Shown here one piece after another: positions 33,001 through 36,000 of a stretch of 64,000 nucleotides of DNA (position 1 is its first letter; every line of letters begins with the position of its first letter). The DNA is taken from assembly GCF_030013205.1 (NCBI RefSeq), contig NZ_CP122648.1; one strand, 5' to 3'. The DNA comes from Escherichia coli. GTDB taxonomy: Bacteria > Pseudomonadota > Gammaproteobacteria > Enterobacterales > Enterobacteriaceae. The position numbers are program-made.

Positions 33001-36000
33001 GCGCCTGGGAAAAACCGATGGTGTAAAGCCCGTCCGGAACAGACTGTCATGAATGACACACACGAACGGGCTGTTCCGGGTGATTCTAATCTGTATCACT
33101 TTTACTGCTTTGTATGAATGGTGAGAATATGAAAATCATTTGCCTCGAAGAACATTATCTCGACAGCGAGTTAGGGCGAGCGTGTATGCCTGTTGCGCTT
33201 GAGCAGGCACCTTTCCTTGGCGACTGGGGGAAAACCGTCGCTGATGGTCATAATCCTGACCGACTCCCTGCTTTCCCGCTTTAATAAACTGAATGTGCCA
33301 CTCTATCTTCATCCCGGGTTACCGCTTAAAAGCGTACAGCAGGCCTACTTCACGGGCTTCAGCGCAGAGGTCAACGCCAGGCTTTCTATGTTTGCCTGGG
33401 GCTGGCATCACGAAGCGGGGATCCATTTGTTGCGGCTGATGTTATCGGGCGCATTTGATAAATATCCCAACCTGCAGGTAATCAGTGGCCACTGGGGGGA
33501 GATGTTACCCTTCTGGCTCCAGCGTCTTGATGACAGCCTACCACTGGCTGCAACGGGTCTGTCACGCACGCTAACGAGAACCTTCCAGGAACACGTTTAC
33601 GTTACCCCGCCATATGCTAACACTGCCGCACTTCCAGTTTATCTACGCGTTAATGGGTGCTGAAAGGATCCTGTTCTCCGTCGATTATCCCTATCAGACC
33701 CTGGACGGTGTAAAAACCTTTATAGACAGTCTGCCCGTCAACAAGGCTGAAAAAGAGGCCATCGCATTTCGCAATGCAGAACGTTTACTGGGCATCACGG
33801 CGTAGTTCACGGGTTCGTGATGACCGGTACAATGAGAACAGTTGACCATTATTAGTTTTTGTCTAAAAGTGAATGAGTCTTTACTGCTCTAAAAAAATAA
33901 TGTTGTCACTCTATACTGGATTTAATATTCACCAAAGATGTTTAACTGATTGAAATGAAAAATATCCTTGTTATTTCAGGTCATCCTGAGCTTACCCATT
34001 CCGTCGCCAATGCCACTATTCTTGATGAAGTGGAGACCGCCCTTCCTGATGTTGAGATTCGTCGTCTGGACAGGCTCTATCCGGATGGCAAATTCAACAT
34101 CGCGGCGGAGCAGGAAAGCCTGCTCAGGGCCGATGTGATTGTCTGGCAGTTCCCTTTTTCCTGGTATGGGCTGCCAGGATTAATGAAAAAATGGCTGGAC
34201 GAGGTCTTTGTTCACGGCTTCGCGCATGGCTCAACGGCGAAACTGGGCGGTAAAAAGCTGATCCTCTCCTTTACAACGGGAGCGCCAGAGGAGCTCTATA
34301 CCGTCGACAGTTTCTTTGGCCATACCATTGAAGAGTATCTTATTCCGTTCGAAACCACGGCAAGGCTGTGCAATCTTGAGCTGCTGACGCCGGTTTATAC
34401 CTGCGGTATCAGCTATGCCGACCGGGATGCCGACAAAATCGCGCAGCAAAAAACGCTTGCCCGGGAACACGCTTCAAGGCTTGTCGAACTGCTCAATTCC
34501 GTCGTGAATAATCCAGAGGGAGAATAACAATGCAGTATACCCGGCTCGGTAAAAGTGACTTACTTGTTTCCCGCATCTGCATGGGATGCATGGGGTTTGG
34601 CGATCCGTCGACGGGTCAGCATAGCTGGACGCTGGACGAAACAGCAAGCCGCGACATCATTCGCTATGGCCTTGAAAAGGGCATCAACTTTTACGATACC
34701 GCTATAGCCTACCAGAATGGCTCCAGTGAGCGATACGTTGGCCGGGCATTACGGGAGATGGCGAAACGCGATGATATCGTCCTGGCCACCAAGTTTCTGC
34801 CGCGAACCCCCGCACAAATTGCCGGAGGGATCAGCGGAAAAGAGGCAATCGCTCAATCCCTTGACCAGAGCCTGAAGAATCTGGGGATGGACTATATCGA
34901 CCTCTACATCTACCACATCTGGGATTACAACACGCCCATTATCGACGTGCTTGAAGCGTTACATACCGCTGTTACTGCTGGCAAAGTACGAGCTGTTGGT
35001 ATTTCAAACTGCTATGCCTGGCAGCTGGCGAAGGCGAACGCCCTTGCTGAACGCGAAGGGCTGACGCCCTTTGTTTCCGTACAGAGCCACTACAATCTAA
35101 TTATGCGCGAAGATGAACGGGAGCTCTTCGGCCTGTGCACTGAGGATAATATCGCAATGACCCCCTATAGCGCGCTGGCCAGCGGCCGCCTCTCTCGTAA
35201 AGAAGGCTATACACGGCGAGCCACAGAGGATGACTATGCGCGTGGAAAATATGACAGCACGGCTGAACAGGATCGCAGCATTATTGAGCGTGTAGCCGAA
35301 CTGGCCGAACGCCATCTGGTGTCAATGACGGAAATATCTCTCGCTTGGCTGCTGACAAAAGTCACATCACCTGTCGTAGGGGCTACAAAAAAAGCTCATG
35401 TCGATGGCGCGGTAAACGCAGTAAATCTTCAACTAAGTCCGGAGGAAATTCAGTTTCTGGAAGAAACCTACCAGCCGCATGTTCTGACGGGGATCATGGC
35501 GCAAAATACGCCGCAAACGAAAGATGTTAAGCAGGTCTGGATGCGATAGCCCTTATTCACTTTTCCTCCTCTCGTCTTTGAGAGCGCCAGTAGCGGTCGG
35601 TTACGTTCTTACCAGCACCAGTTGATCGAACGTCTTAAACAGTAACGTCAGTAAAAAGATCATCGTGAAAAAGACTTTTATGCTTTTAATTTGCATGCTA
35701 ATAAGCAGCCCTGTCTTTGCAACAAAACCGGACGCGCCGAATAAGTCGGAGATGAATATCTTCGAGCTCGGCATCAGACCCGATCGGGACAACGACTTTG
35801 CAGACGTGGCCAGACAGACGATTTCCGCTTCGGTTGATCATGAAGCAGGTACACTGGCGATGTATGCCCTGCAACGCAGCGACAATTCAGGTCAGGCATT
35901 CATGTTCGAACTCTATGAAAATGAGCGTGCTTATCGCAAACATCTCAATGCCGCCCCATACAAAGCATTCGCTGCTCGTGCACCTGACATTATTGACAGG

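What the first reader, a model, noticed from the sequence alone, without database searches (positions are those of the whole stretch)
33128..33805. Amidohydrolase-2 (ACMSD-like decarboxylase) gene reduced to a three-frame remnant
The N-terminal, middle and C-terminal segments of an amidohydrolase-2 are recognisable but lie in three different frames, and the total span (~680 bp) is about 250 bp shorter than a typical family member. This points to an internal deletion plus frameshifts inside an otherwise coding-dense operon.
Basis: seen in the sequence. Interest (0 to 1): 0.35.

Follow-up and report, generated by a model that had tools for sequence, protein, structure and literature searches.

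The report
Decayed amidohydrolase pseudogene in E. coli island
This is the dead remnant of a metal-dependent decarboxylase-type (Amidohydro_2) gene, broken by a 356-bp deletion and a 2-bp deletion, inside a small E. coli accessory operon that is decaying as a whole; it is an ordinary pseudogene, notable only because RefSeq annotates its pieces as three real genes.

Summary
Window 33129-33805 holds three pieces of one Amidohydro_2 (PF04909) gene in three frames.

An intact syntenic orthologue (344/349 aa; Logan contigs and an Enterobacter mori plasmid) lets the lesions be mapped to the base:
- A single out-of-frame 356-bp deletion at 33261|33262 removes residues 51-168, which are strands beta2-beta4 of the barrel.
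- A 2-bp (GG) deletion at 33612|33613 falls in the invariant P-S-G motif.
- 1050 - 356 - 2 = 692 bp, exactly the length of 33114-33805.

The deficit is therefore 358 bp, not about 250, and the first "frameshift" is the deletion itself.

None of 5,426 complete E. coli genomes contains the deleted 356 bp, while about 470 carry the remnant, so the deletion is fixed in E. coli. The GG deletion is polymorphic (about 364 genomes with it, about 105 without). Other alleles add a +C insertion and substitutions at invariant or catalytic residues (H14N, W38R, S285P, D310G).

The operon is not otherwise intact. Its LysR regulator and CMD gene are frameshifted, and a 953-bp deletion removed DUF1330 and a second Flavodoxin_2 gene.

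The ancestor resembles 3NUR and the hydroxybenzoate decarboxylases (LigW, gamma-RSD) far more closely than ACMSD. This is ordinary gene decay and of low interest.

The parts
33129..33263 (+). Fragment A: authentic N-terminal coding part (residues 6-50 of the 349-aa form; the alternative ATG at 33114 adds MNGEN). It holds strand beta1 and the LEEH motif. The frame then reads on out of frame (LPAFPL) to TAA at 33282-33284. RefSeq calls it a 'hypothetical protein' (WP_001327998.1).
   Evidence: ORF list; tblastn aa 1-50, 98% identity, E=9e-29; DNA alignment; RefSeq annotation of the identical strain.
33261..33264 (+). Junction of the 356-bp deletion (equivalent to L006:8149-8504). It removes codons 51-168 plus 2 nt, so it is out of frame. 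The junction has a 2-bp GA microhomology at 33262-33263. An 8-bp direct repeat ATCCTGAC lies just inside both ends, 354 bp apart, but is not the breakpoint.
   Evidence: MAFFT DNA alignment to two intact orthologues; indel list 'DEL after 33261 len 356'. The deleted segment has no match in 5,426 complete E. coli genomes.
33262..33612 (+). Fragment B: authentic middle part (residues 169-285). It includes beta5 with the LYLHPG His (H185), beta6 with GHWGE (H245), and beta7. The frame reads on out of frame (17 aa) to TGA at 33661-33663. RefSeq calls 33244-33663 a 139-aa 'amidohydrolase family protein' (WP_001314733.1).
   Evidence: tblastn aa 169-284, 97% identity; Pfam PF04909 E=1.8e-8; secondary-structure map of the intact model; annotation.
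33612..33613 (+). Site of the 2-bp (GG) deletion in codons S285-G286 of the invariant P-S-G-M-L-T motif. The window also has S285P (TCA to CCA) here. The lesion is polymorphic in E. coli.
   Evidence: Alignment of five E. coli alleles and of intact orthologues. A 60-bp GG-allele probe found 105 genomes at >=95% identity and 364 at 90-95%. Invariance of S285 and G286 is from alignment A2.
33614..33805 (+). Fragment C: authentic C-terminal part (residues 287-349) with beta8 and the catalytic or metal-binding Asp of the DYPY motif (D310). The stop codon TAG is at 33803-33805. RefSeq calls 33653-33805 a 50-aa 'amidohydrolase family protein' (WP_001314732.1).
   Evidence: ORF; Pfam PF04909 E=1.1e-7; tblastn. 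D310 aligns with Asp287 of gamma-RSD 3s4t/4QRO; its role is taken from PMC8187880.
29983..30871 (-). Divergent LysR-family regulator of the operon. It is a pseudogene with a 2-bp deletion after 30405 that shifts the frame.
   Evidence: tblastn split between frames -1 and -2 at about 30410; indel list; RefSeq 'frameshifted'.
31011..33026 (+). Intact upstream operon genes: a 101-aa ORF (31011-31316), a DJ-1/PfpI protein (31328-32017) and an aldo/keto reductase (32079-33026).
   Evidence: Full-length single-frame tblastn matches at 93-98% identity; annotation.
33955..35549 (+). Intact downstream operon genes: a Flavodoxin_2 NAD(P)H oxidoreductase (33955-34527) and an aldo/keto reductase (34530-35549).
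   Evidence: Full-length tblastn matches at 92-93% identity; annotation.
35562..35642 (+). Scar of a 953-bp deletion. The DUF1330 gene is gone, and only the last ~27 codons of a second Flavodoxin_2 gene remain.
   Evidence: blastn gap; 'DEL after 35562 len 953'; tblastn of Flavodoxin2_b aa 172-198 only. No E. coli genome covers >=80% of the segment.
35752..37196 (+). An ABM-domain monooxygenase, which is intact (35752-36390, with possible earlier starts at 35665 or 35695), followed by a carboxymuconolactone decarboxylase-family gene (36406-37196) frameshifted by a 13-bp deletion after 37088.
   Evidence: tblastn; indel list; RefSeq 'frameshifted'.

Best explanation
Window 33129-33805 is a unitary pseudogene. 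It is the remnant of a 344-aa (349-aa from the upstream ATG) Amidohydro_2 enzyme of the metal-dependent, non-oxidative decarboxylase branch. That enzyme was once the fifth gene of a LysR-controlled operon: 101-aa ORF, DJ-1/PfpI, AKR, Amidohydro_2, Flavodoxin_2, AKR, DUF1330, Flavodoxin_2, ABM, CMD.

Shown:
- One 356-bp deletion with a 2-bp microhomology junction removed residues 51-168, which are strands beta2-beta4 and their helices in the (beta/alpha)8 barrel, and shifted the frame.
- This deletion is present in every E. coli copy in the collection searched.
- A 2-bp GG deletion in the invariant P-S-G motif then split the rest, in about 78% of carriers.
- Further alleles add a +C insertion and replacements at invariant or catalytic residues.
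- The neighbouring regulator, CMD, DUF1330 and second Flavodoxin_2 genes are also broken or lost.

Inferred:
- The 7.7-kb island came into E. coli by horizontal transfer from an Enterobacter-type background.
- The island is no longer under selection for this pathway and is eroding neutrally.
- No fragment makes a functional enzyme, because the metal ligands and catalytic residues now lie in three different frames and three of the eight barrel units are missing.

The three RefSeq CDS calls on the fragments are annotation artefacts.
For: - Three-frame layout.
- Intact single-frame orthologues in the same gene order: L006, L007, L009 and E. mori plasmid NZ_CP119171.
- Base-level lesions. The arithmetic closes (1050-356-2=692).
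- The deleted 356 bp is absent from all 5,426 complete E. coli genomes, while the remnant is in 470-474 of them. That rules out an assembly error and shows fixation.
- GG deletion polymorphism, about 105 without and 364 with. The GG-retaining alleles share flanking SNPs with the intact outgroup, so they are ancestral.
- AF2 model of the intact protein (pLDDT 90.6, pTM 0.91) places beta2 (83-88), beta3 (122-124) and beta4 (152-155) inside the deleted residues 51-168.
- E. coli alleles carry H14N, W38R, S285P and D310G at positions that are 97-100% conserved in 32 family members. D310 and H185 align with Asp287 and His164 of gamma-RSD, which are metal ligands, and Asp287 is the proton donor (PMC8187880).
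- Other lesions in the island.
- Independent 31-bp repeat-mediated deletion of the same gene on E. mori plasmid pHS08-091, showing the gene is dispensable elsewhere too.
Against: - dN/dS of the retained codons against intact orthologues (0.09-0.23) is no higher than between intact copies (0.09-0.22). The sequence has therefore not yet drifted measurably, and relaxed constraint rests on the lesions and the hits at invariant residues, not on rates.
- Six of the eleven operon genes remain intact, so part of the island may still be in use.
- Expression of the fragments was not and cannot be tested here. PGAP does call them as CDS.
Confidence: 0.95

Rival explanations
1. The frame changes are sequencing or assembly errors, and the real gene is intact.
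For: Short indels such as the 2-bp GG loss are a common error class, and a 1-base difference exists between the window and the otherwise identical K_EC180 locus over 13.2 kb.
Against: At least 20 independent complete genomes are 100% identical across the region. The 356-bp segment is absent from all 5,426 complete E. coli genomes. The GG deletion is shared by about 364 genomes and travels with linked SNPs. A 356-bp loss is not a plausible sequencing or assembly error.
Confidence: 0.01
2. The remnant is still functional. Either the pieces are joined by programmed frameshifting, or the C-terminal ORF (139 aa here, 187 aa in GG-retaining strains, covering beta5-beta8) works as a half-barrel or in a new role.
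For: PGAP calls the fragments as CDS. The 187-aa ORF survives in about 105 genomes. The retained codons show low dN/dS.
Against: - No frameshifting could restore the 118 missing residues (beta2-beta4).
- All orthologues are single-frame.
- The 187-aa ORF was itself broken by the GG deletion in about 78% of carriers and by a further +C in others.
- Invariant or catalytic residues are mutated in several alleles: D310G, H14N, W38R, S285P.
- The ORF's first six codons (MVIILT) are out-of-frame sequence.
- The low dN/dS is explained by divergence that predates a recent inactivation: only 9 differences from the L009 intact copy over 687 sites.
Confidence: 0.02
3. The short form is the ancestral state, a naturally short family member, and the 344-aa proteins gained an insertion.
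For: None beyond the bare length difference.
Against: - 2,885 homologues were found, and the full-length ones are typically 343-349 aa.
- The 118 residues contain many invariant columns, such as R72, M76, D77, N108, P129, W130, G151 and N155-P158, and three core barrel strands.
- They align to solved structures.
- The short form is out of frame.
Confidence: 0.005

Closest known systems
PDB 3NUR, putative amidohydrolase from Staphylococcus aureus (uncharacterised structural-genomics entry)
   Same: It is the best sequence and fold match of the intact orthologue: phmmer E=2.3e-69, profile E=1.2e-89, Foldseek E=7.7e-31, TM 0.82/0.93, 35% identity. It shares the LYLHP, GHWGE, TPSGMLT and DYPY motifs.
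   Different: No function is known for 3NUR, and no paper mentioning it was found. The window holds only a broken remnant of such a gene.
Metal-dependent non-oxidative hydroxybenzoate decarboxylases of the amidohydrolase superfamily: LigW (4QRN/4INF), gamma-resorcylate decarboxylase (2DVT, 4QRO/3S4T), 2,3-DHBD (6M53, 7A19)
   Same: About 30% identity, E=1e-41 to 1e-46 (profile search 1e-52 to 1e-58), TM 0.80-0.86. The beta5 His (H185 = His164 of gamma-RSD) and beta8 Asp (D310 = Asp287) are conserved.
   Different: The substrate of the intact orthologue is unknown. Its operon context (DJ-1, AKRs, Flavodoxin_2, ABM, CMD) is not a lignin or resorcylate pathway. The copy in the window lacks beta2-beta4 and is split across three frames, so it cannot be an enzyme.
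ACMSD (2-amino-3-carboxymuconate-6-semialdehyde decarboxylase, e.g. 2WM1, 2HBV)
   Same: Same Pfam family (PF04909) and the same barrel fold (TM about 0.74).
   Different: It is a much more distant relative: E about 1e-15 for human ACMSD and about 1e-7 for the Pseudomonas enzyme, 18-20% identity.
Ordinary bacterial unitary pseudogenes in decaying accessory islands (for example yneL and yneO flanking the same hipBA locus in K-12)
   Same: The ORF is disrupted by a deletion plus a small indel, secondary lesions have accumulated, neighbouring genes are also broken, and the lesions are fixed or polymorphic within the species.
   Different: Nothing substantive. The only peculiarity is that RefSeq does not flag these fragments as a pseudogene.

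Membership tests
Pfam PF04909 Amidohydro_2 (descent of the remnant from this family) | Significant match to the family profile | tested here: met
   Fragment B scores 35 bits and fragment C 32.3 bits, against a 26.4-bit cutoff. The intact orthologues carry PF04909.
Pfam PF04909 Amidohydro_2 (as a functional member) | Complete (beta/alpha)8 barrel encoded in one reading frame | tested here: not met
   Residues 51-168 (beta2-beta4) are deleted, and the rest lies in three frames. The window encodes a relic, not a family member.
Metal-dependent decarboxylase branch (gamma-RSD / LigW / 2,3-DHBD) | Metal ligands on beta1 (Glu, and His in gamma-RSD), beta5 (His) and beta8 (Asp, also the proton donor) | tested here: met
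   For the intact orthologue, H185 aligns with His164 and D310 with Asp287 of 3S4T/4QRO. Their roles are taken from PMC8187880. The equivalence of E12/H14 in the LEEH motif on beta1 to Glu8/His10 is inferred only, because the N-terminus lies outside the HMM alignments. In the window the codons survive but sit in different frames. Other E. coli alleles have H14N or D310G.
Metal-dependent decarboxylase branch (gamma-RSD / LigW / 2,3-DHBD) | Decarboxylation of an ortho-hydroxy aromatic acid | not testable with these tools
The closest homologue, 3NUR, is uncharacterised. There is no NCBIfam equivalog.
ACMSD proper (EC 4.1.1.45) | Closest characterised relative is ACMSD | tested here: not met
   ACMSD chains score E=1e-15 or weaker, against 1e-41 to 1e-69 for 3NUR, LigW, gamma-RSD and 2,3-DHBD. 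TM is 0.74 against 0.80-0.86.
Pseudogene (unitary, by deletion or frameshift) | ORF disrupted relative to intact syntenic orthologues | tested here: met
   A 356-bp and a 2-bp deletion relative to L006, L007, L009 and L008, which have the same gene order.
Pseudogene (unitary, by deletion or frameshift) | Lesions are real: reproducible in independent genomes | tested here: met
   At least 20 genomes are 100% identical. The deleted segment is absent from 5,426 genomes. The GG deletion is in about 364 genomes.
Pseudogene (unitary, by deletion or frameshift) | Signs of relaxed constraint after inactivation | tested here: met
   Successive extra lesions are seen (GG deletion, +C insertion, and the secondary deletion in P0012), along with substitutions at 97-100% conserved residues. 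dN/dS itself was uninformative.
Pseudogene (unitary, by deletion or frameshift) | No functional product | not testable with these tools
   This needs transcript or protein data and a knockout phenotype. It is inferred from the loss of three barrel strands.

The most novel reading that the evidence does not exclude
The most novel reading not excluded has two forms.

1. The C-terminal beta5-beta8 ORF (187 aa in GG-retaining strains, 139 aa here) is translated and has acquired some activity, for example as a half-barrel that dimerises.

2. The intact 3NUR-like enzyme, together with its DJ-1/AKR/Flavodoxin_2/DUF1330/ABM/CMD operon, defines an uncharacterised detoxification pathway for aromatics or quinones. 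Its repeated loss (E. coli, E. mori pHS08-091) would then mark a niche shift.

The first concerns this window. The second concerns the intact relatives, not the remnant.
Probability: 0.03. Interest if true: 0.35.

Novelty: already known. Interest (0 to 1): 0.1.

Why it matters
It matters little biologically. This is a textbook case of gene decay in a horizontally acquired island.

There are three practical points:
1. RefSeq/PGAP lists three bogus proteins (WP_001327998.1, WP_001314733.1, WP_001314732.1) in hundreds of E. coli genomes instead of one pseudogene, which inflates pan-genome counts.
2. The ordered lesions (356-bp deletion fixed, GG deletion in about 78% of carriers, +C in a subset, plus point changes) could serve as lineage markers for this hipBA-adjacent island.
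3. The intact operon in Enterobacter, Serratia and Pantoea encodes an uncharacterised 3NUR-like decarboxylase whose substrate might be worth determining.

Tried and rejected
- **dN/dS (Nei-Gojobori)** of the retained codons against four intact orthologues gave 0.09-0.23, the same as intact-versus-intact (0.09-0.22) and the neighbouring genes (0.03-0.16). It says nothing about relaxed selection because most divergence predates inactivation. I replaced it with a count of substitutions at family-invariant residues.
- **NCBIfam:** no family for the intact protein.
- **Literature on 3NUR:** none found.
- **Rfam**, E<=1, over 29000-38500 on both strands: nothing.
- **Promoter and terminator scan** of 32900-34000: counts at the level of shuffled sequence (1 against 1.3, and 2 against 1.1). 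The 'terminator' at 33187-33209 lies inside coding sequence that is conserved in the intact genes.
- **Opposite-strand ORFs** in the span (58, 53 and 51 aa) have no support.
- **Repeat-mediated deletion:** an 8-bp ATCCTGAC repeat flanks the lost segment 354 bp apart. Recombination between the two copies would give an in-frame CCTGAC-TATGAC junction, which is not what is observed. The actual junction shares only GA.
- **Assembly error and programmed frameshifting** were considered and rejected; see the rival explanations.
- **Not run:** the costly genome contigs and metagenome scans. Intact syntenic orthologues had already been found through the protein index and the plasmid collection.
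Full report
**What is in the sequence.** The forward strand of 33114-33805 carries three overlapping ORFs in three different frames:
- 33114/33129-33284: MKIICLEEHYLDSELGRACMPVALEQAPFLGDWGKTVADGHNPDR, then LPAFPL*.
- 33193-33663: ...DSLLSRFNKLNVPLYLHPGLP...GHWGEMLPFWLQRLDDS...EHVYVTP, then 17 out-of-frame residues.
- 33614-33805: MLTLPHFQFIYALMGAERILFSVDYPYQ...RNAERLLGITA*.

Pfam PF04909 (Amidohydro_2) matches the second and third pieces above its gathering score (E=1.8e-8 and 1.1e-7), at profile positions 130-192 and 227-289 of 289. The 51-aa first piece is too short to score. The reverse strand holds only chance ORFs of 51-58 aa. No Rfam family matches the region, and promoter- and terminator-like sites occur at the frequency seen in shuffled sequence.

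**Where it is.** The window is E. coli chromosome. The region 32900-34100 is 100% identical to at least 20 complete genomes (pig ETEC, K_EC180 and others) and is present in 474 of 5,426 complete E. coli genomes. It lies in a roughly 7.75-kb segment (29680-37428) between hipA and the yneL remnant. K-12 MG1655 lacks this segment entirely. RefSeq annotates the three pieces as ordinary CDS: a 'hypothetical protein' (WP_001327998.1) and two 'amidohydrolase family protein' entries (WP_001314733.1, WP_001314732.1). None is flagged as a pseudogene.

**Intact orthologues.** I searched the protein collection with a conceptually joined translation and found 2,885 homologues at E<=1e-10. The full-length ones are typically 343-349 aa. 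The closest hits, P0001-P0003 (349 aa), are encoded on Logan contigs in the same gene order as the window, but with every gene intact:
- a divergent LysR regulator;
- then a 101-aa ORF, DJ-1/PfpI, AKR, Amidohydro_2, Flavodoxin_2, AKR, DUF1330, Flavodoxin_2, ABM and CMD.

The same operon, with an intact 344-aa gene, sits on the 214-kb Enterobacter mori plasmid NZ_CP119171. Homology between these loci and the window stops at about 29946 and 37434. The operon is therefore a discrete island in E. coli.

**The lesions, to the base.** I aligned the window DNA to L006 and L007 and listed indels against L006 and L009 across the whole island. Exactly two lesions fall in this gene.
1. A 356-bp deletion, equivalent to L006:8149-8504.
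   - The junction is at window 33261|33262.
   - The sequence either side shares only GA, a 2-bp microhomology.
   - Because 356 = 3x118+2, the deletion removes codons 51-168 and also shifts the frame.
   - An 8-bp repeat (ATCCTGAC) lies just inside both ends, 354 bp apart, but the observed junction (CCTGAC-CGA-CTCC) is not the one that recombination between those repeats would give.
2. A 2-bp GG deletion between 33612 and 33613, in the codons TCA-GGT (S285-G286).

The arithmetic closes: 1050 - 356 - 2 = 692 = 33114..33805. Counting from the annotated ATG, 1035 - 358 = 677 = 33129..33805.

- aa 1-50 in frame 3 (33114-33263);
- aa 169-284 in frame 1 (33262-33609);
- aa 279-349 in frame 2 (33590-33802);
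- nothing for aa 51-168.

The shortfall is 358 bp, not about 250 bp, and the first frame change is the deletion itself.

**What the deletion removes.** An AlphaFold2 model of the intact P0003, built from a 32-sequence alignment, is confident (mean pLDDT 90.6, pTM 0.91). The deleted residues 51-168 contain:
- helices 58-66 and 70-79;
- strand beta2 (83-88);
- helix 97-117;
- strand beta3 (122-124);
- helix 133-146;
- strand beta4 (152-155);
- the start of helix 166-178.

That is three of the eight beta/alpha units. The GG deletion falls directly after beta7 (280-283), in the invariant P284-S285-G286-M-L-T motif.

The model matches the following by Foldseek:
- 3NUR at TM 0.82/0.93;
- gamma-resorcylate decarboxylase 2DVT at 0.81-0.82;
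- LigW at 0.83-0.86;
- 2,3-DHBD at 0.80;
- ACMSD lower, at about 0.74.

The sequence searches rank the relatives the same way:
- 3NUR at E=2.3e-69;
- LigW 4INF at 5.5e-46;
- 2,3-DHBD at 7.5e-45;
- gamma-RSD at 1.6e-41;
- ACMSD at about 1e-15.

In the profile alignment, H185 (LYLHPG) aligns with His164 of the Polaromonas gamma-RSD, and D310 (DYPY) aligns with Asp287. According to PMC8187880, Glu8, His10, His164 and Asp287 coordinate the metal, and Asp287 donates the proton. The equivalence of E12/H14 in the LEEH motif on beta1 to Glu8/His10 is my inference, because the N-terminus lies outside the local alignments. In the window, the codons for the beta1, beta5/beta6 and beta8 catalytic residues survive, but in three different frames.

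**Population picture.**
- The deleted 356 bp has no match at blastn sensitivity in any of the 5,426 complete E. coli genomes, while the remnant is found in 470. The deletion is therefore fixed in the E. coli copies of this island, and sequencing error is excluded.
- The GG deletion is polymorphic. A 60-bp probe from a GG-retaining allele matches 105 genomes at >=95% identity and 364 at 90-95%. The latter band fits the gap plus linked SNPs, and the window's own allele corresponds to 91.7%.
- GG-retaining strains (WCHEC4533, MEI003) have a fused 187-aa ORF and share flanking SNPs with the intact outgroup. They represent the older state.
- WP8-S17-type alleles add a +C insertion.
- P0012, a 200-aa ENA protein, keeps the post-junction 'DRLP' and then jumps to 'SAEVN'. 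I read this from the sequence as a further secondary deletion on the 356-bp-deleted background.

Comparing five E. coli alleles with the family alignment shows replacements at positions that are 97-100% conserved:
- S285P in the window;
- H14N in WCHEC4533, MEI003 and M00057;
- W38R and D310G in WP8-S17.

D310G removes the catalytic Asp. This is the pattern expected for neutral erosion after the first knockout.

**dN/dS.** Nei-Gojobori dN/dS of the retained codons against intact copies is 0.09-0.23, the same range as intact against intact. It therefore says nothing either way. The remnant differs from the intact L009 copy at only 9 of 687 retained sites, so the inactivation is recent relative to the divergence among these operons.

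**The operon is decaying as a whole.** Relative to the intact operons, the window has these lesions (RefSeq flags LysR and CMD as frameshifted):

| Position | Lesion | Consequence |
|---|---|---|
| after 30405 | 2-bp deletion | LysR regulator frameshifted |
| after 32023 | 23-bp deletion | intergenic |
| after 33261 | 356-bp deletion | this gene |
| after 33612 | 2-bp deletion | this gene |
| after 33890 | 1-bp deletion | intergenic |
| after 35562 | 953-bp deletion | DUF1330 lost; all but the last ~27 codons of the second Flavodoxin_2 lost |
| after 37088 | 13-bp deletion | CMD gene frameshifted |

No complete E. coli genome covers >=80% of the 953-bp segment. In total, five of the eleven genes, including the regulator, are broken or gone. 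'Otherwise coding-dense' is true of ORF density but not of gene integrity.

The same amidohydrolase gene has also been inactivated independently on E. mori plasmid pHS08-091. That copy has a 31-bp out-of-frame deletion between two CTGGCTGCA repeats and is otherwise 99.9% identical to the intact LgD10 copy.

**Conclusion.** This is an ordinary unitary pseudogene of a 3NUR/LigW/gamma-RSD-like Amidohydro_2 decarboxylase. It was killed first by an out-of-frame 356-bp deletion that removed three barrel strands, and then eroded further. It sits inside a horizontally acquired, hipBA-adjacent island that is itself decaying in E. coli. The rival readings are assembly artefact, programmed frameshifting or a functional half-barrel, and an ancestrally short form. 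They are contradicted by recurrence across genomes, by the loss of conserved core structure, and by the secondary lesions. Interest is low. The only actionable point is that RefSeq annotates the fragments as three proteins rather than one pseudogene.

Noticed in passing
window 32500-33900, compared with L006 and L009: The island is a mosaic. The 3' half of AKR1 plus the amidohydrolase remnant are 99-100% identical to the Enterobacter-type Logan contigs, while the rest of the island is only about 87-95% identical. This suggests a recent recombination tract spanning the gene, and means a nearly identical intact copy existed recently.
   Followed up: partly
window 29680-37428 and 38120-41401, compared with K-12 NC_000913.3 1584000-1598000 (L011): K-12 lacks the whole 7.75-kb island, with hipA directly followed by the yneL pseudogene. 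It also lacks about 3.3 kb of fimbrial DNA (a fimA-like gene, a chaperone and the 5' part of the usher) that the window retains. The K-12 ydeT gene is the truncated usher.
   Followed up: partly
L012 (Enterobacter mori plasmid pHS08-091, NZ_CP071064.1 118441-119459): The same amidohydrolase gene has been inactivated independently by a 31-bp out-of-frame deletion between 9-bp direct repeats (CTGGCTGCA) at nt 756. The copy is otherwise 99.9% identical to the intact copy on plasmid NZ_CP119171, and no CDS is listed there.
   Followed up: yes
window 29983-30871 (-), 35562-35642 and 36406-37196: Other pseudogenes lie in the same operon. LysR has a 2-bp deletion after 30405. A 953-bp deletion scar marks the loss of DUF1330 and most of a second Flavodoxin_2 gene. 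The CMD-family gene has a 13-bp deletion after 37088.
   Followed up: yes
window 33129-33284, 33244-33663 and 33653-33805: RefSeq/PGAP annotates the three fragments as separate real proteins (WP_001327998.1, WP_001314733.1, WP_001314732.1) in hundreds of E. coli genomes and does not flag a pseudogene, whereas the neighbouring LysR and CMD genes are flagged 'frameshifted'.
   Followed up: yes
E. coli Z1323CEC0015 chromosome NZ_CP148423.1 1842376-1842598, and six E. coli plasmids (H78-H84): One chromosome retains 223 bp of the segment that the 953-bp deletion removed from the window. Six plasmids carry a 93-bp match lying under Flavodoxin_2 and CMD genes. These could be variant deletion boundaries or a separate plasmid-borne relative of the operon.
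   Followed up: no
L009 3179-4127 and 8077-8801: In the Logan contig that carries the closest intact amidohydrolase, AKR1 and the ABM gene are each called as two pieces. This could be further independent decay or errors in the Logan assembly.
   Followed up: no
window 33035-33079: The AKR1-amidohydrolase intergenic spacer contains a 9-bp inverted repeat, CCGGAACAG...CTGTTCCGG, with a 27-nt loop. It is 100% conserved in L006 and L009. Its function, if any, is unknown.
   Followed up: no
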